Below, one piece after another: positions 1,297-16,480 of a stretch of 64,000 nucleotides of DNA (position 1 is its first letter; the number at the start of each line of letters is the position of its first letter). The position numbers and the translations under genes were made by a program. Source of the DNA: Massilia sp. (GTDB lineage: Bacteria > Pseudomonadota > Gammaproteobacteria > Burkholderiales > Burkholderiaceae_D); contig NZ_JBKBOV010000025.1 in the NCBI RefSeq assembly GCF_046293535.1, positions 6,588 through 70,587 of the forward strand. Reading direction: 5' to 3'. Under the pieces are notes generated by a model. It ran no database searches. It worked only from the letters and a program-made list of their open reading frames with translations, and had not been told where the DNA came from.

Positions 1297-2724
1297 ATGG
1301 GCTCTACTTTCAAGAATTCCTGTCTCGTCGGCCTGGGCGCCATCGCCGGGGTCGCGGTGACCATGCAGTTTTCCGCGCTGGCCCAGAAGCCGGTCGAAGC
1401 CGGCATGCCCATGGCCGAGCTGCGCCAACTGGCCGACGTCTACGGCGTCATCAAGTCCACCTATGTCGAGCCGGTCGAGGACAAGGCCCTGCTGTCGGAA
1501 GCGATTTCCGGCATGGTGGCCTCGCTCGACCCGCATTCGGCCTACCTCGACCCGCGCGCCTACCGCGAGCTGCGCGAAGGCACCGAAGGCCGCTTCGTCG
1601 GCTTGGGGATAGAGATTTCCGAGAGCGAGGACGGTTTCGTGGAAATCGTCGCCCCGATCGAGGACTCCCCCGCCTGGCACGCCGGCATCAAGGAGGGCGA
1701 CCTGATCACCCAGATCGACGGCCAGCCGGTGCAGGGCTTGCCGATCGACGAGGCGATCAAGCGCATGCGCGGCGAGCCCGGCACCCGGGTGACCTTGACC
1801 ATCGCGCGCAAGGCTAGTGCCGTACCGCTGCGCTTCACCATCACACGCGGCGAAATCGTCCAGAAGAGCGTCAAGGCGAAAATGGTCGAGCCGGGCTACG
1901 CGTGGCTGCGTATCGCCCAGTTCCAGGAGCCCACCGTGGACGACATGGCGGCCAGGCTGCAGGCCCTGTACCGCGACAACCCCGACATGAAAGGCCTGGT
2001 GCTCGACCTGCGCAACGACCCCGGCGGCCTGCTGCAAGGTGCGATCGGGGTTGCCGCCGCCTTCCTGCCCAAGGATGCCGAGATCGTCTCGACCAACGGC
2101 CAGCTGGCGGACTCGCGCCAGCGCTTCTACGGCCGCCCCGAGTTCTACATGCTGCGCAGCGGCGCCGATCCGCTGGCCAGCCTGCCGCCCGCCTTCAAGA
2201 AGCTGCCGATGGTGGTGCTGGTGAACACCGGCTCGGCCTCGGCTTCCGAGATCGTGGCCGGCGCCCTGCAGGACTACAAGCGCGCCACCATCCTGGGCAG
2301 CCAGACCTTCGGCAAGGGCTCGGTGCAGACCATCCGCCCGATCGGCCGCGACGCCGCCGTCAAGCTGACCACGGCGCGCTACTACACCCCGGCCGGGCGT
2401 TCGATCCAGGCGCGCGGCATCATTCCCGACCTGCCGGTCGACGAAACGCTCGATGGCGACGGCCTGAATGCGCTGCGCATGCGCGAAGCCGACCTCGAGC
2501 GACATCTGTCGAACGACCGCGGGAACGAAGCCGCGACCCGCCAGGAAGACATCGAGGAGCAGATGCGCCTGTGGGCAGACGCGCGCACGCGCAAGCCGGT
2601 CGACTACGGCAGCGCCGACGACTTCCAGCTGGCCCAGGCCCTGCGCCACCTCAAGGGAGAAAAGGTGCAGTTGTCCAAGCGTGCCGGTGCGGCCGGCACC
2701 ACGCTGGCGCAGCACGCACGGTGA
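1297..2724 (+). CDS. ctpA: S41 family carboxy-terminal processing protease with PDZ domain
   Basis: LDPHSAYL, PDZ (GLGIEI), LDLRNDPGGLL, catalytic GSASASEIVAG and GKGSVQ motifs. Confidence 0.92.
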   Translation: MGSTFKNSCLVGLGAIAGVAVTMQFSALAQKPVEAGMPMAELRQLADVYGVIKSTYVEPVEDKALLSEAISGMVASLDPHSAYLDPRAYRELREGTEGRFVGLGIEISESEDGFVEIVAPIEDSPAWHAGIKEGDLITQIDGQPVQGLPIDEAIKRMRGEPGTRVTLTIARKASAVPLRFTITRGEIVQKSVKAKMVEPGYAWLRIAQFQEPTVDDMAARLQALYRDNPDMKGLVLDLRNDPGGLLQGAIGVAAAFLPKDAEIVSTNGQLADSRQRFYGRPEFYMLRSGADPLASLPPAFKKLPMVVLVNTGSASASEIVAGALQDYKRATILGSQTFGKGSVQTIRPIGRDAAVKLTTARYYTPAGRSIQARGIIPDLPVDETLDGDGLNALRMREADLERHLSNDRGNEAATRQEDIEEQMRLWADARTRKPVDYGSADDFQLAQALRHLKGEKVQLSKRAGAAGTTLAQHAR

Positions 2725-2837
2725 GCTAGGTTTACCTCTCTAAACTGTCGTTTTCGACAATTCCCAGGTCCGGTCCGAGGGTGTAGAATCGGCGCATCTC
2801 GCGGGCAACTCCCGTTATTTTCTTGAAAGTCCCCCAC

Positions 2838-3959
2838 ATGAAACCTGTCGTGATCAGCGGCACCGGCCTGTTTACGCCGCCGTACTCCATCTCCAACGAC
2901 GAGCTGGTAACGGCGTACAACGCCTACGTCGAGCTGTACAACCAGGAACACGCCGCCGCCATCGCCGCCGGCGACACCACCGCGCTCGAGCCGTCGAGCA
3001 GCGCCTTCATCGAAAAAGCCTCGGGCATCAAGTCGCGCTACGTGATGGAGAAGGAAGGCATCCTCGACCCGGCCCACATGACCGCGCGCATCCCCGAACG
3101 CGCCGACGAACAGGTGTCGCTGCAGGCCGAGATGTGCGTGGCCGCCGCGCGCCAAGCGCTGGAGCGCGCCGGCAAGCAGCCCTCCGACATCGACATGGTG
3201 CTGGTGGCCTGCTCGAACATGCAGCGACCCTACCCGGCCATGGCGGTCGAGGTGCAGGATGCGCTGGGCATCGATGGCTTCGGCTTCGACATGAACGTGG
3301 CCTGCTCCTCGGCCACCTTCGGCATCCAGACCGCGGTCGACGCGGTGCGCAGCGGCCGCGCGCGCGCCGTCCTGATGCTGAACCCGGAAATCACCAGCGG
3401 CCACCTGAACTTCCGCGACCGCGACAGCCACTTCATCTTTGGCGACGCCTGCACGGCCGTGATCGTCGAAGCCGCGGACACCGCGACCAGCGCCCACCAG
3501 TGGGAAATCCTGGACAGCAAGCTGAAGACCAAGTTCTCGAACAACATCCGCAACAACTTCGGCTTCATGAACCGCTTCGACGAAGCCGGCATCGGCGCGC
3601 CGGACAAGCTGTTCCGCCAGCAGGGCCGCAAGGTGTTCAAGGAAGTGTGCCCGATGGCGGCCGAGATGATCGCCGAGACTGTGCAGAACGCCGGCCTGAA
3701 GATCGCGGACGTGTCGCGCTACTGGCTGCACCAGGCCAACCTGAACATGAACCTCTTGATCGCCCGTACCCTGCTGGGCCGCGATGCCGAGCCGAACGAA
3801 GCGCCGGTGATCCTCGATACCTATGCGAATACCTCGTCGGCGGGGTCGATCATTGCGTTCCACAAGTACCAGGATGACCTGCCCTCGGGTTCGAACGGCG
3901 TGATCTGCTCGTTCGGCGCGGGTTACTCGATCGGTTGCGTGGTGGTGCGCAAGAAGTAA
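2838..3959 (+). CDS. beta-ketoacyl-ACP synthase III, long FabH-like (PA3286-type)
   Basis: Cys-His-Asn triad motifs DMNVACSS, WLHQAN, ANTSSAG; start MKPVVISGTG. Confidence 0.88.
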   Translation: MKPVVISGTGLFTPPYSISNDELVTAYNAYVELYNQEHAAAIAAGDTTALEPSSSAFIEKASGIKSRYVMEKEGILDPAHMTARIPERADEQVSLQAEMCVAAARQALERAGKQPSDIDMVLVACSNMQRPYPAMAVEVQDALGIDGFGFDMNVACSSATFGIQTAVDAVRSGRARAVLMLNPEITSGHLNFRDRDSHFIFGDACTAVIVEAADTATSAHQWEILDSKLKTKFSNNIRNNFGFMNRFDEAGIGAPDKLFRQQGRKVFKEVCPMAAEMIAETVQNAGLKIADVSRYWLHQANLNMNLLIARTLLGRDAEPNEAPVILDTYANTSSAGSIIAFHKYQDDLPSGSNGVICSFGAGYSIGCVVVRKK

Positions 3960-7249: not shown

Positions 7250-8206
7250 TCAATCAAAGCGGCCGTGGCGCTTGAACTGCTCGGTGGCGTTCACCAGCGC
7301 GCGGGCGATGCCGGTCTCGAGGGCGCCGTGGCCGCCGTCCGGAATCATGTGCAGTTTCGCGCCCGGCCAGGCCTGGTGCAGGCGCCAGGCCGACAGCGGC
7401 GGGCAGATCACGTCGTAGCGGCCCTGCACGATGGAGGCCGGCAGGTGGGCAATGCGGCCAATGTCGCGCACCAGCTGGTCTTCTTCGAGAAAAGCGCCGT
7501 GCAGCATGTAGTGCGACTCCAGGCGGCCGACGCCGAGGTCGAGCGCATCCGACGAAGGCTCGTCCGGCTGCGGCAGCAAGAACACGCGCCGGCCTTCGAA
7601 GCGGCTCCAGGCGCGCGCGGCCGGCCAGTAGACGGCGGGATCGTGGCACAGCAGGCGTTCGCAATAAGCCTTGAGCAGGTCGCCTCGCTCGGCCTGCGGG
7701 ATCGGCGCCACGAATTCCTCGTACAGCTCGGGATAGAACCACTTGACCCCGTTGATGAACCAGTCGACTTCGGCCTTCGTGCACAGGAAGATCCCGCGCA
7801 GCACGAAGCCGAGGCAGCGCTCCGGGTGGGCCTGGCCATAGGCCAGCGCCAGGGTCGAGCCCCAGGAGCCGCCGAACACCAGCCACTGCTTGACGCCGAA
7901 CATCTGCCGCAGGCGCTCGATGTCGTCGATCAGGAGCTGGGTCGTGTTGTTGCGCCATTCGCCCAGCGGCGTCGACTTGCCGGCCCCGCGCTGATCGAAC
8001 AGGATCACGCGGTAGGCGCTCGGGTCGAAGAAGCGGCGGTGCTGCGGCGACAGGCCCGCGCCCGGCCCGCCGTGCAGGAACAGCACCGGGATGCCGTTGG
8101 GGTTGCCGACTTCTTCCCAGTAGATCGTGTGCAGCTCGTCGACGGCGAGCATGCCGTGGCGGATGGGCTGGATCGGCGGGAACAGGGACGGCGGTGTGGC
8201 AGGCAT
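7250..8206 (-). CDS. pip: prolyl aminopeptidase (proline iminopeptidase)
   Basis: LHGGPG, FDQRGAGKS, FGGSWGSTL nucleophile motif. Confidence 0.93.
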   Translation of the reverse strand: MPATPPSLFPPIQPIRHGMLAVDELHTIYWEEVGNPNGIPVLFLHGGPGAGLSPQHRRFFDPSAYRVILFDQRGAGKSTPLGEWRNNTTQLLIDDIERLRQMFGVKQWLVFGGSWGSTLALAYGQAHPERCLGFVLRGIFLCTKAEVDWFINGVKWFYPELYEEFVAPIPQAERGDLLKAYCERLLCHDPAVYWPAARAWSRFEGRRVFLLPQPDEPSSDALDLGVGRLESHYMLHGAFLEEDQLVRDIGRIAHLPASIVQGRYDVICPPLSAWRLHQAWPGAKLHMIPDGGHGALETGIARALVNATEQFKRHGRFD

Positions 8207-8260
8207 GGGACTCGGCTCTCTCGGCGGGTGGAAACCGATTGTAGCGTAGAGCCTATTCTT

Positions 8261-9583
8261 TCAGAAGAAGGTGGTCAGCGCCTCGCGCACGTTGTAGGCG
8301 TCGTCCACCGCCAGCATGACTTGCCACTTGTCGAAAGTGGTGCACGGGTGCGAGATGCCGCAGCCGACCAGGTCGCCCACCTGCAGATTGTCGCGAATGT
8401 CTCCCTCCGGCAGCGCCAGGTAGGCATGCTGGTCGTTCATCTTGAAGATCGTGCAGCCGGGTGGCAGCGCTGCGGGCGCCGCCGCCTCGCTGCCCGGACG
8501 GTGGGTGAACAGCGGCGTCGGCAGCGCTTCGTCGTAGGAGGCGTCGCGCTTGCCCATGGTGAGGATGGCCAGGCCCGGTTCGGGGCGCGACTGCACGCTG
8601 CTCCATACTTCCAGCGCCGGGCGCAATCCTTCCACGGTGTGCGCTTCGCGCGCATCGAGCTGGGCCAGCAGGCGCTGGTAGGAACCGTGGTCGCTGGTGA
8701 GGTAGCAGCCGCTGCGCAGCACGGGGCGCACCGGGCGCGACAGGCCTTCCATGCCCGCGAACCCGCGCGCCACCAGGTCGAAATAGGACGAGCCGCCGGC
8801 CGAAATCAGGATCTCGGCAGCGCCGAACAGGCCCTCGCCATCCGCCGTTTCCACCAGGTCCACCAGCTCGGCCAGGAAGGCTTTCACGGCGCGCAGGTCG
8901 GCATCGCGGTCGTCGCTGACCAAGAGGCCTTCGTAGCCTTCGAAGCCCGCCAGGGTCAGGCCATCGGCAGCGGCAATGGCGCGTGCGACCACCATCGCTT
9001 CTTCGCTCGTCCGGCAGCCGGCGCGCTTGCCGCCCAAGCCGAGTTCGACCAGCACCGGCAGGGGACGGGCCAGGCCGCGCGCGCTCATCGCCGTCGAGAG
9101 GCGCGCCACGCCCTCGATCGAGTCGGCCAGCACGAAGCATTCGAAATCGGGGTCCTCATGCAGCAGCGCCAATACCGCCTCGATGTCGGCGCGCGCCACC
9201 AGCTGGTTGGCCAGCAGCACGCGGCGCACGTTGAAGCGGTGCGCCACCTGCACCTGCGTGGCGCTGGCCAGCGTGATGCCCCAAGCGCCGTTGGCCAGCT
9301 GGGCCGCGAACAGCTGCGGGCTCATCGTGGTCTTGCCGTGCGGCGCCAGCGTGACACCGTGGCGCGCGCAGAAGTCGCGCATCCAGGCCAGGTTGTGCTG
9401 GAGCGCCGACACCTTGAGCACGGCGACCGGGAAAGAGGTGTCGCCGCGCAGCACGTTCCAGCCCTGCACGCCGATCGCGCCCTGGCGCAACGGCTCTGTC
9501 AATGGCAAGCCCTTGGTACCGGGTAGCAAGAATTGTTCGTCGAGGCTGGACAGAGCGAGGCCGTCGCGGGGCAAGGTGTGCAT
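8261..9583 (-). CDS. PLP-dependent amino acid deaminase (D-serine dehydratase/D-threonine aldolase-like, alanine racemase fold)
   Basis: LAPHGKTTMSP PLP-lysine motif, SAGGSSYFD, LRSGCY, GISHPCTTFDKW. Confidence 0.82.
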   Translation of the reverse strand: MHTLPRDGLALSSLDEQFLLPGTKGLPLTEPLRQGAIGVQGWNVLRGDTSFPVAVLKVSALQHNLAWMRDFCARHGVTLAPHGKTTMSPQLFAAQLANGAWGITLASATQVQVAHRFNVRRVLLANQLVARADIEAVLALLHEDPDFECFVLADSIEGVARLSTAMSARGLARPLPVLVELGLGGKRAGCRTSEEAMVVARAIAAADGLTLAGFEGYEGLLVSDDRDADLRAVKAFLAELVDLVETADGEGLFGAAEILISAGGSSYFDLVARGFAGMEGLSRPVRPVLRSGCYLTSDHGSYQRLLAQLDAREAHTVEGLRPALEVWSSVQSRPEPGLAILTMGKRDASYDEALPTPLFTHRPGSEAAAPAALPPGCTIFKMNDQHAYLALPEGDIRDNLQVGDLVGCGISHPCTTFDKWQVMLAVDDAYNVREALTTFF

Positions 9584-9874
9584 GAGAATCCGTTAATTCA
9601 ATAAAAGCGCTTGTCGGTTTAGTGTTAATTGCATAATTAAGAGAAAGTCTTGTTTACAAGCGATTTGCGATTACGGCAGTGTTTGATCTACTCGGCTTCT
9701 GCACACTATAAGATCATTTCTCTTTGAATTTTCTCAATATTTAAATCAACAAAAAGTTGCACTCCATCAATATAGCGATTAGATAAAATTTTATACTAGA
9801 AACTGCCAACTGACCATCTACTGATGGCAGGTCACATTGGCGCAAAATTTTAACCACTTCAAACGGAGCATAAA

Positions 9875-10054
9875 ATGCAAAATTTAAGTTCTTCTGAAAT
9901 TGATAAAATCGGCGGTGGCTATTTGCACTTGACAGATGTCGATGCATTTTTGAAATTGAATAATAATTTCAAGGGGGGCATTTTGCATGTTACACCAAAC
10001 CCTCCAGTCCGTAAGGAAAGAAATTTTCCGACATCACCAGCATTACTAGATTGA
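9875..10054 (+). CDS. double-glycine-leader peptide precursor 1 (59 aa; not in ORF track)
   Basis: Manual translation MQNLSSSEIDKIGGG/YLHLTDVDAFLKLNNNFKGGILHVTPNPPVRKERNFPTSPALLD; GGAG RBS; leader fits LSxxELxxIxGG; terminator follows. Confidence 0.7.
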   Translation: MQNLSSSEIDKIGGGYLHLTDVDAFLKLNNNFKGGILHVTPNPPVRKERNFPTSPALLD

Positions 10055-10072
10055 CTAAAGAGTGAAATCGGG

Positions 10073-10100
10073 TTGCGGTTGCTACCCAACCGCAATTTTT
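10073..10100 (+). terminator. Rho-independent terminator after precursor 1
   Basis: TTGCGGTTG-ctacc-CAACCGCAA 9-bp stem followed by TTTTT. Confidence 0.7.
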
Positions 10101-10235
10101 AAAGTTTTTGGAGAATTCCTTGAATGGAATTTTCATATAAATCCTAATAATCTAGAATCTACTTAGAGCTTTTATTCATTTGGGCAGTGCCTGGAGTAGT
10201 GAGATCATATCCTTCTGCGGCAGACCGTTGCCAAA

Positions 10236-10480
10236 CTATTGAGTCCGTTCGATCCTGATGGGCTTATCGAATGATTCTGGCCGTTCCTGCTTCCATTCCT
10301 TGAGTTCAAGAATAGGCTTTTTAAGGTCGATTACATGTTACAAATCATAGTAATTGTACGACTTCAATAGTTCACCAACATGGGCTGCAGGTTGTCCCGT
10401 TCTCGAAGCAGGTCTAGTACAGCAGGTCGCATATGCGAAACGTTGAAGAGAGCTCGTTTAGTCCCGCATGTTGCGCCGTT
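10236..10480 (-). pseudogene. possible heavily decayed IS481-like transposase C-terminal remnant
   Basis: Broken frames give RICDLLY*TCFENG and LLKSYNYYDL*HVIDLKKPILELKEWKQERPESFDKP, reminiscent from memory of IS481-family C-termini; weak. Confidence 0.25.
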
Positions 10481-10984
10481 TCACAGCGTTCGCTAATGTA
10501 ATCATATAGGTCTGACGCTTAATGATTAGCCGCGCCAAATCTTGGTGTCTGCCAAACTCTCGGGTACTACGAACTTGCGCGTGACATTATGAACTCATGC
10601 TGAAAACTGCTCTTGATGCGTTTGATGCCGCGTCTATTAACCCAATAAAGTCTTTGCGTGCAAAAAGCCAGTTACAGTAAGTTGAATTAGCACGCGAAAC
10701 AAATAATCTAATAGGTGAGCTTGCTCGTCAAGAATGTCCAGTCTTCAGCGGATACCTATCCGTTGCTGTTTTCCGCATCCAAATACAACTTTTTGTCAAT
10801 GCTTACCAAGTCTGAAGGAAAGCCTGTCATGTGCATTGATCACATGATTTGAGCCACGTCATAATAAATACTTGATTAGACAGGAGCAATGCTAACTCGA
10901 TAGATTGTTCTTTCGCAGAACGCTAACGCATATTGGAGCATGTAAAGTTGGGCTTCACATAAATTTGCATAGCGGATACATATA

Positions 10985-11029
10985 TTGCGCAACTGCAATA
11001 CCCTGTTATAAATTAGTATTATTATTATC
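10985..11029 (+). promoter_or_regulatory. candidate sigma70 extended -10 promoter for precursor 2, overlapped by a Fur-box-like 19-mer
   Basis: TTGCGC-16 nt-TATAAA with TG at the extended -10 position; AATTAGTATTATTATTATC (11011-11029) matches 13/19 of GATAATGATAATCATTATC. Confidence 0.35.
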
Positions 11030-11095
11030 TCAGCCGCGAATTTTATTGTTTGTCGGCTTTAGCAACCTCCCTACCAAATCGATGGAGAAATTAAA

Positions 11096-11317
11096 ATGCA
11101 AGTACTTAATGTTGAAGAAATCCAAGAAGTTTCTGGTGGTGTCCAGGATAAAGTCGTACCAGCTGCGTTTATTTCTGCAGGCGGATACCTTGGCAGTTAT
11201 CTCTCAGCAGCGCGCTTTGGTGCCACACTTGGGGCAGCAGCTGGGCCGATTGGCGCTATCGTTGGCGGCGTAGCTGCCGGCGTGTTCGTCTATTATTACT
11301 ACGATCAAAAGCGCTGA
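11096..11317 (+). CDS. class II microcin/bacteriocin-like precursor 2 (73 aa, GG leader, glycine-zipper core)
   Basis: Leader MQVLNVEEIQEVSGG (15 aa, ColV-like), Gly/Ala-rich hydrophobic core GATLGAAAGPIGAIVGGVAAG, GGAG RBS, upstream of a PCAT exporter. Confidence 0.85.
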   Translation: MQVLNVEEIQEVSGGVQDKVVPAAFISAGGYLGSYLSAARFGATLGAAAGPIGAIVGGVAAGVFVYYYYDQKR

Positions 11318-11395
11318 CCGAGAGCCGATTTAGGGCTGCGGTTAACTGAGGAGTCGGCTTAGTGTCGACTCTTCTTTCAATACGGTGAACTAATC

Positions 11396-11890
11396 ATGAC
11401 AAACTTAAAAGAAATTAATTCCATATCAAAAACCTACTTCCCACTTCCATTGTGGCGCTATATTTTAATTTTCCAATCTTGGCAACAGTTACTATCTTGG
11501 ATGGTTATTGTTTCAGCAACTGCGTTTTCGGTCTACTTTTTGCTAAATATTCTCGATCCTAGGTCTGTACCAATCGAAGCAATTTTGTTGGGTGTAGCTT
11601 TTGGATCTATGTTCTCAGTTATTATGGTTATTCCTGTGGAAATTCATTTCAAAGGTAAAACTAATCGCCTCACATACATTCTAGTTGAAAAGCTTTATAG
11701 CGTAGGCTACATTCAAGATTCACAGGCAGGAGAAATTACCACATTCAAACAAAAATTCTCTTCTCGGTTAAAATGGACCGAAGGAAATGTTGTAATTAAA
11801 AAACTTGATCATGAAATCGTAGTGACTGGAGGCTGGTTTATTTTGGGAAACTTACGTCGCGCTATAAAAATATCCTATTTTAAAGATTAA
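11396..11890 (+). CDS. 2-TM membrane protein, candidate immunity protein
   Basis: 164 aa, very AT-rich, two hydrophobic segments, directly downstream of precursor 2. Confidence 0.6.
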   Translation: MTNLKEINSISKTYFPLPLWRYILIFQSWQQLLSWMVIVSATAFSVYFLLNILDPRSVPIEAILLGVAFGSMFSVIMVIPVEIHFKGKTNRLTYILVEKLYSVGYIQDSQAGEITTFKQKFSSRLKWTEGNVVIKKLDHEIVVTGGWFILGNLRRAIKISYFKD

Positions 11891-12012
11891 CCTTTTATTT
11901 GTTACTTGATAAAAATATAATATATTAGCTTTATATAACGATATTCGACCTTTTTTAATTATTTGTCACAATGAGAATCCGGCAGCCAGCTTAAAAAGTA
12001 AGGAGAGATAAC

Positions 12013-13347
12013 TTGCGCGACGCCGACATCACTTCAGAAAAAACTCGGAAGAGCCTTCTCCCCGATCAAACTTCGGAATCCCCACCAAGAAGTTTGTTTC
12101 GTCAGCAAGCTATTGAGCATAGCAAGGTACGCCAATACGGAACGGTCATAGTAACCCGTCCTGTTAGCCATATAGTTCTTACTTTTATATCTATTTTCCT
12201 TGCTCTCCTGCTCATCTTGTTCTTCCTCTTTTTCGAAACAACTCGTAAAGTAATAATCCATGGCATGTTAGTCCCTACGGCAGGGGTAATCAGAGTTTTT
12301 CCTAATCAAGCGGGTATCATCAAGGAGGTCCGTATCAAGGAAGGCCAATTCGTGCGTGAAGGTGATATCCTTTTCATTGTCTCCAGTGAGCGTAGCAATG
12401 CCGAAGCTAGCTCTACCGAAGCCTTGATTTCTGACTTACTAATGCGACGACGCGAAAGCTTCCAAGCTGAGCTGCTCCAAGCTAAGGTGCAGGTCGGACA
12501 GCGCCGCGCGGCTCTTCGGCAGCGTACACATGATCTCCAAGAAGAACTCAAGCGACTTGAAACCCAGGCGCATATTCAGAAGCAGCGCATCGCCTTAACC
12601 GAGCAGGCAGTGGCGCGTTTTACGCAATTGAAGGCGACCAATTACATATCAGCAGCGCAACTGCAAGAGCGCGAAGCCGAGTTACTCGACCAGCACCAGC
12701 GCCTGTTCGAGATTGAGCGCATTCGCTCTAGCACCCAACGCGACCTAGCCAGCACTCAGGCGGAAGAACTTGATGTCGCAGTGCAGGCCCTGCGCGACGA
12801 AAACGTTCTCCGCCGCAATGCTTCCACGCTCGAACAGGATCTGACCGAGAACGAGGCGCGACGCGAAGTCTCAATACGGGCGCGCCAGAGCGGAACAGTT
12901 ACGGCAATAGCCGCCAATCTCGGCCAAACCGTCGGTATTTCCACTGCTCTAGGATCGATCCTGCCTGAGGGAAACAAGCTGGAAGCGGAAATGTATGTGC
13001 CATCGCGCGCAGTCGGCTTTATCAAACCAAGAATAACGGCCCTGCTGCGCTACCAGGCTTTCCCATATCAGAAATTTGGCCAGCATACCGCACGCGTGCG
13101 CGAAGTAGCCACGACCTCGGTGCGGCCCGAGGAACTCCCAACTTCAGCTGCGACGTTGCCGGGCGCTGCCCAATCCGAGCCGGTATATCGTGTACGGCTC
13201 GAGCTCGACCAGCAAACTGTGCGCGCGTACGGGACTGCGATGCCGCTACGTTCTGGCATGCTAGTCGATGCCAGCATCATGCTCGAACGCCGCAAGCTCT
13301 ACGAATGGGTGCTGGAACCATTGTTCAGTATTTCGGGCCGATTGTAA
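12013..13347 (+). CDS. HlyD-family membrane fusion protein (CvaA/MchE-type bacteriocin secretion adaptor)
   Basis: TTG start with AAGGAG RBS; LFRQQAI, single TM, long coiled coil, QAFPYQKFG, LRSGM..DASIMLERRKLYEW. Confidence 0.92.
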   Translation: MRDADITSEKTRKSLLPDQTSESPPRSLFRQQAIEHSKVRQYGTVIVTRPVSHIVLTFISIFLALLLILFFLFFETTRKVIIHGMLVPTAGVIRVFPNQAGIIKEVRIKEGQFVREGDILFIVSSERSNAEASSTEALISDLLMRRRESFQAELLQAKVQVGQRRAALRQRTHDLQEELKRLETQAHIQKQRIALTEQAVARFTQLKATNYISAAQLQEREAELLDQHQRLFEIERIRSSTQRDLASTQAEELDVAVQALRDENVLRRNASTLEQDLTENEARREVSIRARQSGTVTAIAANLGQTVGISTALGSILPEGNKLEAEMYVPSRAVGFIKPRITALLRYQAFPYQKFGQHTARVREVATTSVRPEELPTSAATLPGAAQSEPVYRVRLELDQQTVRAYGTAMPLRSGMLVDASIMLERRKLYEWVLEPLFSISGRL

Positions 13348-13424
13348 GCGGGCAAAGCTCGTTCCCATAAACTAGTGGCGGTAATGAGTTTTTACGGCCA
13401 GCTCATCCTGATAATAGTTAAATT

Positions 13425-15569
13425 ATGCTATTTCCCATTCTTTCCCAGCTCACGTTCTTGAACCGCCGTAGGCTACCCGTTATGCTGCAGACCGAAGGGG
13501 CAGAATGTGGCTTGGCATGCTTGGCAATGGTCGCCAGTTATTGGGGCCATCGAATAGATATTCCAAGCATGCGTCGCCGCTTCTCGGTATCGATGAAGGG
13601 CGTTAACCTGAAGGGCATGATGGCGATGGCAAACGGCCTGTCCCTGCAGACCCGCCCGCTCAAGTTGGACCTTCAGCACTTGCCTGAATTGAAGTTACCC
13701 TGTGTAACGCACTGGGACCTGAACCACTTTGTCGTGCTCAAGTCAGTCTCGGCAAAGCATGTCGTCGTACATGATCCAAGTATCGGCGAACGGCGTATGC
13801 CACTCGAAGAATTTGCCAAGCACTTTACCGGTATCGCGCTCGAGCTGACACCGAGTGCACAGTTCGAGGCCAAGGAAGAACGTCAGCAATTTTCTCTGTT
13901 CTCGTTGATGGGAAATGTGGTCGGTCTGCGCCGCAGCTTGCTCCAAGTGCTGGCGCTCGGTCTGGCCCTTCAGATCTGCGCCCTGATCGCGCCCTTCTAT
14001 ATGCAGTGGATTGTCGACGAAGCCCTGCTGGCGTCGGACCGCGACCTGATCAAGGTGCTTGGCTGCGGCTTCTTGCTCCTGGTACTGCTTCAGACCACAA
14101 TCGGCGCCGTCCGCTCATGGGTTACCACCGTGCTAGCCACCAGCCTGAACCTACAATGGCTGGGCAACGCCTTTGCCCATCTAATAAAGCTACCATTGCC
14201 CTACTTCGAGAAGCGCCATACCGGCGACATCGTCTCACGCTTCGGTTCAATCCAGCAGATTCAGACGAGCCTAACGACACAGTTTGTCGAAGGCATCATC
14301 GACGGTGTACTGGTGCTGGGCACCCTGATCATGATGCTGCTATATAGCCCCAAGTTGGCTGCAGTGGCCTGCGTTGCAGTACTGTTGTACGCGCTACTGC
14401 GTTTGGCAATGTTCCGCCCACTGCGCGATGCGAACGCCGAAGAGATCATCCATACCGCGAAACAGCAAAGCCACTTCATGGAAACTGTGCGCGGTATGCA
14501 AAGTATTCGCCTGTTCGGGCGCAGCGAAGAGCGTCGTTCAGCCTGGATAAACTCGCTGACCGACGAGTTCAACGCTCAGTTGCGTATCGCGAGGCTGGCC
14601 GTCTCGTACCAGACATCCAATACCCTGCTATTCAATGGGGAGCGCGTGATCGTGATCTGGCTTGCAGCCCTCTCCGTGCTCAGTAATGAATTCTCGGTCG
14701 GAATGGTATTTGCATTTATTAGCTACAAGGATCAGTTTAGCCAGCGAATGGCCAGTCTGATCGACAAACTGTTCGAATTACGGATGATGCGCTTGCATGG
14801 CGAGCGCGTGGCCGATATCGTGCTGGCCGAAGCAGAACCGGACGATGACGTCGTCGAAGTCGACGCAAACCAGATCATGCCTTCAATCGAGATCAAAAAC
14901 CTGAGTTTCCGTTATTCCGACAGCGAGCCCGAAGTCATCCGTGAACTCAACCTGAGCATCCCCGCTGGGCAATGTGTGGCAATTACTGGACCTTCTGGCT
15001 GCGGGAAGACGACATTGATGAAATTGCTGCTGGGCCTGCTCGTACCAACCGGAGGTGAAATTCGCATCGGGGGAGTACCCTTGGGTACACTCGGCCTGTC
15101 GAACTATCGCCGACTGCTAGGCACGGTGATGCAGGATGATACATTGTTTGCCGGATCGATCTCAGACAACATTAGTTTTTTCGATCCCCTGATCGACATG
15201 CAACGCGTCCATGTGTGCGCTGAACTAGCCGCCATCGAGCCTGAGATCTCTACCATGCCGATGGCCTTCAACACCCTGGTCGGCGATATCGGCACCGGCC
15301 TGTCGGGCGGACAGCAGCAGCGCGTCCTTTTGGCACGTGCACTGTACAAGAACCCGAAAATCTTGGTGCTTGACGAAGCGACCAGCCACTTGGACGTGTG
15401 GAATGAACAGGCTGTCAACGCAGCCATCCAGAAGATTCCACTTACCCGAATTATCGTCGCGCACCGTCCAGAAACGATCCAAATGGCAGAGCGTGTGATC
15501 GTCCTGCATAACGGTCAAGTTGCCCAAGATGTGACTAAGTCGACTCCCGAAGATAAGCAGGCAGCTTGA
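13425..15569 (+). CDS. peptidase-containing ABC transporter (C39 peptidase + TMD + NBD; CvaB/MchF-type)
   Basis: QTEGAECGLACLAM (catalytic Cys), HWDLNHFVVL (His), Walker A GPSGCGKT, LSGGQQQR, ILVLDEATSHLD all intact. Confidence 0.95.
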   Translation: MLFPILSQLTFLNRRRLPVMLQTEGAECGLACLAMVASYWGHRIDIPSMRRRFSVSMKGVNLKGMMAMANGLSLQTRPLKLDLQHLPELKLPCVTHWDLNHFVVLKSVSAKHVVVHDPSIGERRMPLEEFAKHFTGIALELTPSAQFEAKEERQQFSLFSLMGNVVGLRRSLLQVLALGLALQICALIAPFYMQWIVDEALLASDRDLIKVLGCGFLLLVLLQTTIGAVRSWVTTVLATSLNLQWLGNAFAHLIKLPLPYFEKRHTGDIVSRFGSIQQIQTSLTTQFVEGIIDGVLVLGTLIMMLLYSPKLAAVACVAVLLYALLRLAMFRPLRDANAEEIIHTAKQQSHFMETVRGMQSIRLFGRSEERRSAWINSLTDEFNAQLRIARLAVSYQTSNTLLFNGERVIVIWLAALSVLSNEFSVGMVFAFISYKDQFSQRMASLIDKLFELRMMRLHGERVADIVLAEAEPDDDVVEVDANQIMPSIEIKNLSFRYSDSEPEVIRELNLSIPAGQCVAITGPSGCGKTTLMKLLLGLLVPTGGEIRIGGVPLGTLGLSNYRRLLGTVMQDDTLFAGSISDNISFFDPLIDMQRVHVCAELAAIEPEISTMPMAFNTLVGDIGTGLSGGQQQRVLLARALYKNPKILVLDEATSHLDVWNEQAVNAAIQKIPLTRIIVAHRPETIQMAERVIVLHNGQVAQDVTKSTPEDKQAA

Positions 15570-15584
15570 CGAGGACAGTCTGCT

Positions 15585-15626
15585 AAAAAAAATGGCCCGG
15601 ACGATTACTCGTCCAGGCCAGCTTTT
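15585..15626. terminator. bidirectional terminator between the exporter and phbB
   Basis: A-tract, TGGCCCGGACGA-ttac-TCGTCCAGGCCA (1 mismatch), TTTT. Confidence 0.7.
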
Positions 15627-15663
15627 GCAACTCAAGCGTCTTGTCTACGCGCTTGGTCGATAA

Positions 15664-16404
15664 TCACTGCATGTGCTGCCCACCATTGATGGCAATGTTG
15701 GCGCCAGTCACGAAGGCCGCCTCTTCCGACGACAGGTAAGCAACCAGGCCGGCGACTTCTTCCGGCTTGCCCAGGCGGCCCATCGGAATCTGCGGGATGA
15801 TCTTGCTTTCCAGCACTTCGCTCGGGATGTCCATCACCATCTTGGTGCCAATGTAGCCCGGCGAGATGGTGTTGACGGTCACGCCCTTGCGCGCCACTTC
15901 CAGGGCCAGGGCCTTAGTAAAACCGTGCATGCCGGCCTTGGCCGCCGAATAGTTGGTCTGGCCGAAGGCGCCCTTCTGGCCGTTCACCGACGAGATGTTG
16001 ATGATCCGGCCCCAGCCGCGCTCGACCATGCCGTCGCAGACCGGCTTGGTCATGTTGAACACGGAATCCAGGTTGGTCTTCATGACCGCATCCCAGTTCG
16101 GCTTGTCCATCTTCTTGAAGGTCATGTCGCGCGTGATGCCGGCGTTGTTCACCAGCACGTCGACCGGGCCGACTTCCTGCTCGACCTGGCGCACGCAGGC
16201 CTGGGCCGAATCGTAGTCCGACACGTCGCAGGGATAGGCCTTGAAGTCGTAGCCCTGCTCTTTCATCTGGCTCAGCCAGCTTTCCGCCTTCGTGTTCCCC
16301 GGCGAATACGTAGTGACGACCTTATAACCCAAAGCTGCCAGCTTGATGCACACCGCTTCGCCCAGACCGCCCATGCCGCCCGTCACCAATGCTACTCGTG
16401 CCAT
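15664..16404 (-). CDS. phbB: acetoacetyl-CoA reductase
   Basis: MARVALVTGGMGGLG, NNAGITRD, GQTNYSAAKAG; downstream of a thiolase. Confidence 0.95.
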   Translation of the reverse strand: MARVALVTGGMGGLGEAVCIKLAALGYKVVTTYSPGNTKAESWLSQMKEQGYDFKAYPCDVSDYDSAQACVRQVEQEVGPVDVLVNNAGITRDMTFKKMDKPNWDAVMKTNLDSVFNMTKPVCDGMVERGWGRIINISSVNGQKGAFGQTNYSAAKAGMHGFTKALALEVARKGVTVNTISPGYIGTKMVMDIPSEVLESKIIPQIPMGRLGKPEEVAGLVAYLSSEEAAFVTGANIAINGGQHMQ

Positions 16405-16480
16405 TGTCTTCTCCAGTTTTATAGTCAATCACTTCCTGCGAACCGGGCAGCCGCGCCGGGCTGCCCGGACACAAGCTTTC

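What the first reader, a model, noticed from the sequence alone, without database searches (positions are those of the whole stretch)
9590..15590. Apparently complete double-glycine peptide (class II microcin/bacteriocin-like) export island in a Massilia-like genome
Seen: an AT-rich block with two GG-leader precursors (9875-10054, 11096-11317), a 2-TM gene, a HlyD adaptor and a PCAT with intact C39 Cys/His and ABC motifs, closed by a terminator at about 15590. Known: CvaA/CvaB-type PCATs cleave about 15-aa GG leaders and export microcins through TolC encoded elsewhere; Caulobacter CdzCD are T1SS-exported glycine-zipper toxins with a membrane immunity protein. Neither core has Cys (unlike ColV/MccL) or a Ser-rich tail (unlike class IIb), and there are no modification enzymes. 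Inference: an uncharacterised antagonism or signalling peptide system; I know of no characterised example in this group, but could not check.
Basis: partly seen in the sequence, partly recalled or inferred. Interest (0 to 1): 0.88.

Follow-up and report, generated by a model that had tools for sequence, protein, structure and literature searches.

The report
Microcin-type peptide export locus in Massilia
A foreign-looking 6-kb stretch in a Massilia genome encodes a cut-and-export pump, two small secretion-tagged peptides and a probable self-protection protein: most likely an antibacterial peptide weapon of a well-known kind, built from peptide and protection-protein families that nobody has described.

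Summary
Window 9590-15640 is a low-GC block (GC3 0.31-0.67; neighbouring genes 0.84-0.92). It carries two ORFs with canonical double-glycine (GG) leaders (pep1, pep2), a 164-aa two-TM protein (p164), a HlyD adaptor and an intact C39-ABC exporter (PCAT, 40% identical to CvaB).

New evidence:
- pep2 and p164 form a conserved two-gene module. They were adjacent in 12 of 14 loci with a p164 homologue: Massilia-like contigs, Janthinobacterium, Roseateles and metagenomes. The pairing holds with, without or inverted relative to an exporter.
- Two p164 homologues have no peptide, as expected for a toxin-immunity pair.
- All three cargo genes are under purifying selection.
- The exporter pair sits at the same dsd-like/phbB site in at least eight Massilia/Telluria species, each with different GG-peptide cargo. 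It is an old exporter dock with swappable cargo, not a strain-specific island.
- The p164 family (65 representative clusters) has no Pfam, NCBIfam or PDB match.
- pep1 has one homologue, its own terminator and no nearby immunity gene. Its role is open.

Verdict: a new member of a known kind (class II microcin-type system, now reported as widespread in Gram-negative bacteria). Activity, export and immunity are inferred, not shown. Interest is moderate.

The parts
9590..15640 (.). Low-GC block between the dsd-like gene (8261-9583, -) and phbB (15664-16428, -)
   Evidence: GC is 0.32-0.58 against 0.65-0.71 in the flanks. GC3 is 0.31-0.67 against 0.84-0.92.
9875..10054 (+). pep1: 59-aa GG-leader precursor. 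The leader is MQNLSSSEIDKIGGG. The predicted 44-aa mature peptide is hydrophilic (GRAVY -0.36), Pro-rich at its C-terminus, and has no Cys.
   Evidence: There is one homologue at L023:551-742: 52% identity, E=8e-15, with FKGGIL and NPxVRKExxFPxSxALLD conserved. pN is 0.25 against pS 0.76. It is absent from L018-L020, where DNA similarity stops at its ATG.
10070..10103 (+). Intrinsic terminator of pep1: 12-bp G+C-rich stem followed by UUUUU
   Evidence: Fold energy -19.2 kcal/mol, z = -2.8.
10104..10964 (.). ORF-free spacer found only in this genome; probably decayed or junk cargo DNA
   Evidence: No ORF longer than 45 aa. No blastn or tblastx match in about 100 related loci or elsewhere in the window. 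No Rfam hit.
10965..11095 (+). Conserved region upstream of pep2. It holds an invariant block at 10979-11000 (CATATATTGCGCAACTGCAATA, containing the palindrome TTGCGCAA), an inverted repeat AGCCG/CGGCT at 11032-11058, and a GGAG Shine-Dalgarno sequence. It is a probable promoter/operator plus 5' UTR.
   Evidence: Alignment of the window, L019 and L023. DNA similarity resumes at 10965.
11096..11317 (+). pep2: 73-aa GG-leader precursor. The leader is MQVLNVEEIQEVSGG. The 58-aa mature peptide is Gly/Ala-rich (38%), carries stacked small-xxx-small motifs, a conserved AARFGATLGAAAGPIG block and a YYYY tail. It is the putative membrane-active microcin.
   Evidence: Its family has only 8 clusters among 5.8e9 proteins, plus relatives in Roseateles, Janthinobacterium and metagenomes. 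dN/dS is 0.14-0.18. The Pfam Bacteriocin_IIc match scores 16.5 bits, below the 27.1 cut-off. It is 30% identical to CvaC over the leader and Gly-rich half. The low-confidence fold is helix-break-helix.
11348..11374 (+). 11-bp hairpin followed by UUCUUU, between pep2 and p164; a possible partial terminator or attenuator
   Evidence: Fold energy -28.3 kcal/mol for the 78-nt spacer, z = -3.1.
11396..11890 (+). p164: 164-aa protein with a juxtamembrane motif WRYxLxFQSWxQxxSW, two TM helices (29-53 and 60-76) and an 85-aa basic C-terminal alpha/beta domain (invariant E129). It is the putative cognate immunity protein of pep2.
   Evidence: AF2 model with pLDDT 83.5 and pTM 0.70. The family has 65 representative clusters at E<=1e-3 (alignments A1/A2). 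No match in Pfam, NCBIfam or PDB. It lies directly downstream of a pep2-type peptide in 12 of 14 loci. dN/dS is 0.17-0.28. Charge distribution suggests both termini are cytoplasmic.
11891..12012 (+). AT-rich spacer with a promoter-like site (TTGTTA-16-TATATT, 11899-11926) and an AAGGAG Shine-Dalgarno sequence before the TTG start of HlyD
   Evidence: No stable fold.
12013..13347 (+). HlyD/CvaA-type periplasmic adaptor (membrane fusion protein), 444 aa
   Evidence: Pfam HlyD_3 and Biotin_lipoyl_2. TIGR01843 E=1e-35, below cut-off. 22% identity to CvaA over 433 residues, E=2e-38.
13425..15569 (+). PCAT: C39 peptidase-containing ABC exporter, 714 aa, with all catalytic and ATPase motifs intact
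   Evidence: 39.8% identity to CvaB and about 41% to MchF. It is the only PCAT in this genome.
15593..15620 (.). Hairpin between the convergent PCAT and phbB genes, acting as a bidirectional terminator. It has a T8 run on the phbB side and a weaker U-run on the PCAT side.
   Evidence: z = -3.5.

Best explanation
This is a class II microcin-type (unmodified, double-glycine-leader) bacteriocin locus.

Proposed mechanism:
1. pep2 is made as a 73-aa precursor.
2. The C39 domain of the PCAT cuts after Gly15. The PCAT, the HlyD adaptor and a TolC-like outer-membrane channel encoded elsewhere export the 58-aa Gly/Ala-rich peptide in one step.
3. In susceptible relatives the peptide inserts into the inner membrane, as a helical hairpin packed through small-xxx-small motifs, and damages it.
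4. p164 is an inner-membrane protein with two TM helices and a cytoplasmic domain. It protects the producer.
5. pep1 is a second, independently transcribed cargo of the same exporter. Its activity is unknown.

In this Massilia subclade the exporter pair is a long-resident 'dock' at the dsd-like/phbB site, and cargo cassettes are exchanged next to it.

What is shown here:
- Gene integrity, motifs and leader consensus.
- Purifying selection on the cargo genes.
- Co-occurrence of pep2 with p164.
- Cargo turnover at the same chromosomal site.

What is inferred:
- Cleavage and export.
- Antibacterial activity and the membrane as target.
- The immunity role of p164.
- The use of a TolC-like channel.
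For: - **Exporter:** C39, ABC_membrane and ABC_tran domains are present, and a HlyD adaptor lies next to it. It is 40% identical to CvaB and 41% to MchF. The residues matching CvaB Cys32/His105 are conserved (PMC3335142 for CvaB). Walker A, signature, Walker B and H-loop are intact.
- **Leaders:** both peptides match the GG-leader consensus in register and have good Shine-Dalgarno sites.
- **pep2 core:** 38% Gly+Ala with 11 overlapping small-xxx-small-xxx-small motifs, similar to the N-terminal half of CvaC.
- **Toxin-immunity signature:** a pep2-type peptide lies immediately upstream of a p164 homologue in the window, L018-L024, L027, L045, L048 and L057. This holds when the pair is inverted relative to the exporter (L021, L022), lies between HlyD and the PCAT (L024), or has no exporter nearby (L027). 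Peptide-less p164 homologues occur in L025 and L026.
- **Co-divergence:** pep2 drops from 88% to 56% identity while p164 drops from 81% to 28% across the same loci.
- **Selection:** dN/dS is 0.14-0.28 for pep2 and p164.
- **Cargo turnover:** at least eight Massilia/Telluria species carry the exporter at the same site with unrelated GG peptides. 66 of 80 PCAT loci of this lineage have at least one ORF matching the GG-leader pattern, though some matches are false positives inside known genes.
- **Literature fit:** microcin immunity proteins are small (216 aa or less), carry TM helices and are encoded next to the microcin (PMC12219008, section 19).
Against: - No experiment or expression data.
- No outer-membrane factor lies in the window.
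- pep2 does not reach the threshold of any bacteriocin family model: Bacteriocin_IIc scores 16.5 against a cut-off of 27.1.
- p164 is unrelated to Cvi. It has an unusually large, conserved cytoplasmic domain for an immunity protein.
- The pep2 structure model is of low confidence (pLDDT 57).
- pep1 is hydrophilic, has no adjacent immunity candidate, and has only one known homologue.
Confidence: 0.75

Rival explanations
1. Cdz-like contact-dependent weapon or self-assembling surface/biofilm material. After export, pep2 stays on the producer surface as insoluble aggregates, favoured by its glycine zipper and YYYY tail. It then kills on contact or builds matrix instead of acting as a diffusible microcin.
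For: - The core is rich in glycine-zipper motifs and has a Tyr-rich tail.
- CdzC/CdzD are T1SS-exported glycine-zipper proteins that aggregate on the cell surface (PMC5380434).
- The Acinetobacter microcin MccAB1 self-assembles and promotes biofilm formation (PMC13188072).
Against: - There is only one glycine-zipper peptide here, whereas Cdz needs CdzC plus CdzD.
- p164 (2 TM helices plus a cytoplasmic domain) does not resemble the 3-TM CdzI described in PMC5380434.
- The exporter is closest to the CvaB/MchF microcin exporters.
- Nothing in the sequence separates soluble from surface-bound behaviour.
Confidence: 0.15
2. One or both peptides are signals rather than toxins. pep1 in particular (hydrophilic, Pro-rich, no immunity partner, own transcription unit) would be a PCAT-exported signalling or host-interaction peptide.
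For: - The pep1 core is hydrophilic (GRAVY -0.36) and lacks small-xxx-small motifs.
- pep1 has its own terminator.
- No conserved neighbouring small membrane ORF exists.
- PCATs export non-bacteriocin peptides in other Gram-negative bacteria, for example RaxX through RaxB (bioRxiv 10.1101/442517).
Against: - No sensor kinase, response regulator or other receptor gene lies in or beside the block.
- pep1 is dispensable for the module, since it is absent in L018-L020.
- Validated class II microcins are very diverse in sequence (PMC12219008).
- For pep2, the tight pairing with p164 and the peptide-less p164 copies fit toxin-immunity better than signalling.
Confidence: 0.1
3. The cargo is a decaying remnant. 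The exporter is kept for some other substrate, and pep1, pep2 and p164 are no longer functional.
For: - A 0.86-kb ORF-free spacer unique to this genome sits between pep1 and pep2.
- Cargo is lost or replaced in relatives.
- M. alkalitolerans carries a truncated PCAT copy.
Against: - All five genes are intact.
- pep2 and p164 have dN/dS of 0.14-0.28 across three lineages, and pep1 has pN much lower than pS.
- Shine-Dalgarno sites, terminators and the region upstream of pep2 are conserved.
- This is the only PCAT in the genome, and no other GG-leader gene was seen in the window.
Confidence: 0.04

Closest known systems
Microcin V (colicin V) system of E. coli: cvaC-cvi plus cvaA-cvaB, with TolC
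   Same: - Unmodified precursor with a 15-aa GG leader.
- PCAT exporter 39.8% identical to CvaB over 688 residues, with the catalytic Cys and His conserved.
- HlyD adaptor 22% identical to CvaA.
- Gly/Ala-rich N-terminal core: pep2 and CvaC are 30% identical over the leader and the Gly-rich half.
- A membrane protein gene lies next to the peptide gene, and no outer-membrane factor is in the locus.
   Different: - pep2 is 58 aa when mature, against 88 aa for MccV. It lacks MccV's C-terminal uptake/toxic half and its disulfide Cys pair.
- p164 (164 aa, 2 TM helices plus a cytoplasmic domain) shows no similarity to Cvi (78 aa).
- Gene order is peptide-immunity-adaptor-PCAT on one strand, whereas cvi-cvaC is convergent with cvaAB.
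- The locus is chromosomal and in a betaproteobacterium.
Expanded set of class II microcins (PMC12219008, PMC9746304; Acinetobacter MccAB1/McaI, PMC13188072)
   Same: - Same operational definition: a small GG-leader protein next to a PCAT and adaptor, with an adjacent small TM immunity protein.
- The immunity gene is often unannotated.
- Some members are Gly/Ala-rich, permeabilise the inner membrane and self-assemble.
   Different: - None of the papers I could search mentions Massilia, Janthinobacterium or Oxalobacteraceae.
- McaI is a 56-aa protein made only of two TM helices. p164 adds a conserved 85-aa cytoplasmic domain.
- No cupin (McaB-like) accessory gene is present here.
Cdz system of Caulobacter crescentus (CdzAB, CdzC/D, CdzI; PMC5380434)
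   Same: Small glycine-zipper proteins exported by a type I system, with a TM immunity protein encoded beside them.
   Different: - Cdz is a two-protein toxin (86 and 84 aa) that stays bound to the cell surface.
- CdzI is predicted to have three TM helices.
- Here there is one glycine-zipper peptide plus an unrelated hydrophilic peptide.
- I did not compare sequences with the Cdz proteins.
Class IIc/IIb bacteriocins of Gram-positive bacteria (Pfam PF10439, Bacteriocin_IIc)
   Same: GG leader, GxxxG-rich hydrophobic core, and export by an AMS/PCAT-type transporter. pep2 gives a weak match (E=0.0087).
   Different: - The score (16.5 bits) is below the family cut-off of 27.1.
- The host is Gram-negative, so export needs an adaptor and an outer-membrane channel.

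Membership tests
Class II microcin system (MccV-type) | Precursor under about 120 aa with an N-terminal 15-18 aa double-glycine leader (hydrophobic at -4, -7, -12; Glu at -8; GG/GA at -2/-1) | tested here: met
   pep1 and pep2 both fit the consensus in register.
Class II microcin system (MccV-type) | Dedicated PCAT with a catalytic C39 Cys/His and a functional ABC cassette | tested here: met
   Pfam domains. C28 and H101 align with CvaB C32 and H105. Walker A/B, LSGGQ and H-loop are present.
Class II microcin system (MccV-type) | Adjacent membrane-fusion (HlyD/CvaA) adaptor | tested here: met
   22% identity to CvaA, E=2e-38.
Class II microcin system (MccV-type) | TolC-type outer-membrane channel available in the genome | not testable with these tools
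   None among the ORFs of plausible size tested in the window.
Class II microcin system (MccV-type) | Cognate small TM immunity protein encoded next to the microcin | tested here: inconclusive
   p164 fits by position, by its TM helices and by strict co-occurrence with pep2-type peptides in 12 of 14 loci. The immunity function itself was not tested.
Class II microcin system (MccV-type) | No post-translational modification genes (class IIa), or a Ser-rich tail plus siderophore-attachment genes (class IIb) | tested here: met
   There are no modification genes in the block, so the IIa-like condition holds. The IIb features are absent, and so are the Cys pairs of MccV/MccL.
Class II microcin system (MccV-type) | Antibacterial activity of the exported mature peptide | not testable with these tools
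   This needs an experiment.
Pfam PF10439 Bacteriocin_IIc | Score at or above the gathering threshold of 27.1 bits | tested here: not met
   pep2 scores 16.5 bits, E=0.0087.
NHLP/Nif11 bacteriocin export system (TIGR03796/TIGR03794) | PCAT and adaptor reach the equivalog cut-offs, and NHLP-type precursors are present | tested here: not met
   The PCAT scores 483.8 against 853.3 and HlyD scores 74.5 against 156.2. The precursors are short GG peptides, not NHLP-type.
Bacterial PH (bPH) domain membrane proteins (a source's label on the distant p164 homologue P0031) | Recognisable bPH domain by sequence profile or fold | tested here: not met
   No bPH Pfam hit in any of 22 family members at E<=1. 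No significant PDB fold match, best E=0.05. No PDB sequence match.
Cdz contact-dependent glycine-zipper system | Two co-acting glycine-zipper proteins held on the cell surface, plus a CdzI-type immunity protein | not tested
   Only one glycine-zipper peptide is present. Localisation cannot be read from sequence, and no sequence comparison with Cdz proteins was run.

The most novel reading that the evidence does not exclude
The p164 family may be a previously unrecognised class of microcin immunity protein. Its conserved cytoplasmic alpha/beta domain (invariant E129; near-invariant Y105, W127, G145) and polar juxtamembrane stripe (Q27, S28, Q31, S34) stay constant while the partner peptides diverge. 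That pattern suggests p164 does not simply mask the peptide. It could act on a conserved host component, for example the inner-membrane receptor or a membrane-repair or signalling partner. Together with the pep2-type 'GP-hinge, Tyr-tail' peptides it would define a new microcin family across Burkholderiales. In addition, pep1 could be a non-toxic signal exported by the PCAT.
Probability: 0.2. Interest if true: 0.65.

Novelty: new member of a known kind. Interest (0 to 1): 0.42.

Why it matters
- **Taxonomic reach.** Experimentally studied class II microcins come almost entirely from Enterobacterales and Acinetobacter. This locus offers a clean, testable example in Oxalobacteraceae, a group of soil, water and rhizosphere bacteria.
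- **A new toxin-immunity pair.** The pep2/p164 module recurs across several Burkholderiales lineages and has no database family. How microcin immunity proteins work is still unresolved (PMC13188072, discussion). p164 folds confidently and has a conserved soluble domain, so it is more tractable for structural and interaction studies than the usual 50-80-aa immunity proteins.
- **Cargo exchange.** Identical exporter and flanking genes with different cargo in each species make a natural system for studying how bacteriocin cassettes are swapped.

Tried and rejected
- **bPH-domain reading of p164.** A UniRef label on homologue P0031 prompted it. I rejected it because there is no Pfam bPH hit in 22 members and no significant fold or sequence match in the PDB. 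The top Foldseek hits (BamC C-terminal domain, KA1 domains) have E >= 0.05 and TM < 0.5, so I did not use them.
- **Gene remnant or RNA gene in the 10104-10964 gap.** There is no ORF, no Rfam hit, and no blastn or tblastx similarity to about 100 related loci or to the rest of the window.
- **Insertion scars.** No convincing direct or inverted repeats bound the block, and no tRNA, integrase or transposase lies within it.
- **A second PCAT in the genome.** The only other C39 hit is a 229-aa secreted stand-alone peptidase in what looks like a Fap-type operon. It is unrelated.
- **Deeper search for pep1 homologues.** The word-index search found only the query itself. A pep1 HMM against all fetched loci found only L023.
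- **The search for related loci with the broad p164 alignment** failed because no stretch was conserved enough. The narrow alignment found no species-representative genome.
- **pep2 structure.** The model is of low confidence (pLDDT 57), so I treat it as weak support only.
- **** compared the p164 profile with itself and was uninformative.

Full report
**1. Observation**

The block at 9590-15640 is real. GC falls from 0.65-0.71 to 0.32-0.58. Third-position GC is 0.32 (pep1), 0.39 (pep2), 0.31 (p164), 0.56 (HlyD) and 0.67 (PCAT), against 0.84-0.92 for neighbouring genes.

The block holds five co-oriented genes:
- pep1, 9875-10054
- pep2, 11096-11317
- p164, 11396-11890
- a HlyD adaptor, 12013-13347 (TTG start behind an AAGGAG site)
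- a PCAT, 13425-15569

The flanking genes are on the minus strand: a D-serine-dehydratase-like/aldolase-like gene (8261-9583) and acetoacetyl-CoA reductase phbB (15664-16428), followed by a thiolase.

The PCAT has Peptidase_C39 (E=2e-36), ABC_membrane and ABC_tran domains. It aligns with CvaB at 39.8% identity over 688 residues. Q22/C28/H101/D117 match CvaB Q26/C32/H105/D121, and Walker A, LSGGQ, Walker B and H-loop are intact. PMC3335142 names Cys32 and His105 as the critical CvaB residues. It is the only PCAT in this genome. The second C39 hit is a secreted stand-alone peptidase in an unrelated locus.

Both peptide leaders fit the double-glycine consensus in register, and each gene has a GGAG site 8 nt before its ATG.

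**2. The small genes are real**

- pep2 has homologues in only 8 clusters of a 5.8-billion-protein collection. They share the blocks LGSYLxAARFGATLGAAAGPIGA and YYYY.
- pep1 has one homologue (L023:551-742, 52% identity, E=8e-15). FKGGIL and NPxVRKExxFPxSxALLD are conserved.
- Nei-Gojobori estimates give dN/dS of 0.14-0.18 for pep2 and 0.17-0.28 for p164. For pep1, pN is 0.25 against pS 0.76, with synonymous sites saturated. For comparison, HlyD gives 0.14 and the PCAT 0.07.
- pep1 ends in a strong intrinsic terminator with a 12-bp stem and a U5 run, z = -2.8.
- A second hairpin (z = -3.1) lies between pep2 and p164.
- About 130 nt upstream of pep2 are conserved in three lineages. This stretch includes an invariant 22-nt block with the palindrome TTGCGCAA.

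**3. pep2 and p164 form a module**

p164 belongs to a family of 65 representative clusters (E<=1e-3 among 1.84 billion representatives). Nearly all members are 150-170 aa and align end to end. The family has no Pfam or NCBIfam model and no PDB relative by sequence.

The AF2 model is confident (pLDDT 83.5, pTM 0.70). It shows a short N-terminal segment, two TM helices (29-53 and 60-76) and a beta-alpha-beta4-alpha domain. Foldseek finds nothing significant (best E=0.05). One source labels a distant member 'PH domain-containing', and the data do not support that label. Charge distribution (N-terminus +3/-1; C-terminal domain with 14 K+R) suggests both termini are cytoplasmic. This is an inference.

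Contexts of p164 homologues:

| Loci | Context |
|---|---|
| L018-L020, L023 | Syntenic with the window |
| L021, L022 | Metagenomes; the pair points away from the exporter |
| L024 (Roseateles sp. LYH14W) | The pair lies between HlyD and the PCAT |
| L027 | The pair sits beside a transposase, with no exporter within 7 kb |
| L045, L048, L057 (Janthinobacterium) | A shorter peptide with the same GPIGG hinge and aromatic tail |
| L025, L026 | p164 homologue with no peptide |

Counting the window, a pep2-type GG peptide lies immediately upstream of the p164 homologue in 12 of 14 loci. Peptide and partner diverge together: pep2 goes from 88% to 56% identity while p164 goes from 81% to 28%. Strict adjacency regardless of the exporter, co-divergence and peptide-less copies are the expected signature of a toxin-immunity pair. 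This matches the published working definition of microcin immunity genes: adjacent, 216 aa or less, with TM helices (PMC12219008).

**4. The exporter is a conserved dock with variable cargo**

PCAT orthologues at 86-92% identity occur in only 5 of 36 congeneric genomes. Named relatives are Massilia varians, M. alkalitolerans, M. consociata, M. suwonensis, M. oculi, M. timonae, Telluria sp. B2 and several unnamed Massilia strains. More distant copies (52-77% identity) occur in Janthinobacterium, Undibacterium, Pseudoduganella, Roseateles, Chromobacterium and Nitrosomonas.

In at least eight species the HlyD-PCAT pair lies between the same dsd-like and phbB genes. In six others it sits elsewhere. 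Cargo between dsd and HlyD ranges from 0.4 to 2.9 kb and is unrelated between species:
- Gly-rich 50-80-aa peptides.
- Small amphipathic peptides.
- In M. alkalitolerans, two peptides downstream of the PCAT, followed by a truncated second PCAT copy.

Of the 80 loci of this PCAT lineage, 66 have at least one ORF matching the GG-leader pattern within 7 kb. Some of these matches are false positives inside known genes such as phbB.

DNA comparison shows a modular structure. In L018-L020, similarity to the window runs up to the pep1 ATG (9879), breaks, and resumes at 10965. pep1 is therefore a variably present cassette. The 0.86-kb spacer at 10104-10964 is unique to this genome, has no ORF and matches nothing.

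**5. Mechanism**

The best-supported model is a class II microcin-type system.
1. The C39 domain removes the 15-aa leaders.
2. The PCAT, HlyD and a TolC-like channel encoded elsewhere export the peptides.
3. The 58-aa pep2 core acts on the inner membrane of sensitive relatives. It is 38% Gly+Ala, has eleven overlapping small-xxx-small-xxx-small motifs, GRAVY +0.61, no Cys, and a conserved Gly-Pro hinge between two predicted helices.
4. p164 protects the producer.

Everything after 'the genes are intact and co-inherited' is inference. The system may be Cdz-like (surface-bound aggregates, PMC5380434) or self-assembling like MccAB1 (PMC13188072). That is a sub-variant which sequence alone cannot resolve.

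pep1 is the odd component. It is hydrophilic (GRAVY -0.36) and Pro-rich, has its own terminator and no candidate immunity gene, and has a single known homologue. It may be a second toxin with a non-membrane target, or a signal. RaxX/RaxB shows that PCATs export signalling peptides in Gram-negative bacteria (bioRxiv 10.1101/442517). No receptor gene is nearby.

**6. Comparison and novelty**

In function the locus matches the MccV paradigm, measured against a pColV plasmid:
- PCAT against CvaB: 40% identity.
- HlyD against CvaA: 22% identity.
- pep2 against CvaC: 30% identity over the leader and the Gly-rich half. MccV's C-terminal half and disulfide are missing.
- p164 against Cvi: no similarity.

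pep2 misses the Bacteriocin_IIc threshold, and the exporter misses the NHLP equivalog cut-offs. Full-text searches found no paper linking Massilia, Janthinobacterium or Oxalobacteraceae with microcins, PCATs or GG peptides. However, class II microcins are now described as abundant and broadly distributed in Gram-negative bacteria (PMC12219008, PMC13188072). Other windows of this scan yielded several comparable loci that were judged ordinary.

I therefore class this as a new member of a known kind. Two components deserve attention: the undescribed pep2/p164 module, whose immunity candidate carries a conserved cytoplasmic domain, and the enigmatic pep1.

**7. Limits**

As a result I could not obtain expression data, search the whole genome for TolC, or run a formal empty-site test.

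Noticed in passing
L012 (G000 contig 21, 73254-76095); ORFs at L012:1357-2046(-), 2060-2476(-), 2531-2842(-): The only other C39 hit in this genome is a 229-aa stand-alone peptidase with a signal peptide. It lies next to Gly/Asn/Ser/Gln-rich repeat proteins. From memory this looks like a Fap-type functional-amyloid operon with a FapD-like peptidase. It is unrelated to the island.
   Followed up: partly
L013 (= L084, Massilia alkalitolerans DSM 17462): 13134-13535 and 14855-16138: In this relative the GG peptides lie downstream of the PCAT. They are followed by a truncated second PCAT copy (residues 285-714, 91% identity, one in-frame TGA). This looks like a recombination scar left by cargo exchange.
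   Followed up: partly
L024 (Roseateles sp. LYH14W, GCA_043555835.1): 9690-14459; L025 (Pseudorhodoferax): 7561-11377: In Roseateles, the module with a pep2-type peptide and p164 homologue is followed by a HlyC-family acyltransferase gene, a 564-aa gene and an M16 peptidase. In Pseudorhodoferax, a peptide-less p164 homologue is followed by an M16 peptidase and an Rce1/CPBP protease. This raises the possibility of accessory processing or acylation in some family members.
   Followed up: no
window 10979-11000 and 11032-11058: An invariant 22-nt block CATATATTGCGCAACTGCAATA (palindrome TTGCGCAA) and an inverted repeat AGCCG...CGGCT lie upstream of pep2. Both are conserved in three diverged loci. 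They are candidates for an operator, a promoter or a 5'-UTR structure.
   Followed up: partly
L028 (E. coli pColV plasmid NZ_CP104534.1): 745-1038: A DUF6404 gene lies 1.2 kb upstream of cvaA on the ColV plasmid. The TM part of two p164-family members gives weak DUF6404 hits (E=0.04-0.1). This may be coincidence, or a hint that DUF6404 proteins are orphan microcin immunity proteins.
   Followed up: no
L018:11640-14655 and L019:9614-12629: In the closest metagenomic relatives, three extra genes sit between the PCAT and phbB: a glycosyltransferase family 2 gene, a GtrA-like gene and a gene of about 535 aa for a protein with no family match. The site therefore also accepts non-bacteriocin cargo.
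   Followed up: no
L041 and L064 (Massilia timonae CCUG 45783, same supercontig): Two copies of this PCAT lineage (82% and 84% identity) lie on one chromosome. One of them has no HlyD match next to it.
   Followed up: no
L029 (Janthinobacterium lividum HAMBI_1919, 440-kb plasmid NZ_CP139977.1): 4654-8136: The best plasmid match for the exporter (75.8% identity) sits on a large non-mobilisable replicon, next to NRPS accessory genes (MbtH, a PPTase) and an SMI1/KNR4 immunity-like gene.
   Followed up: no
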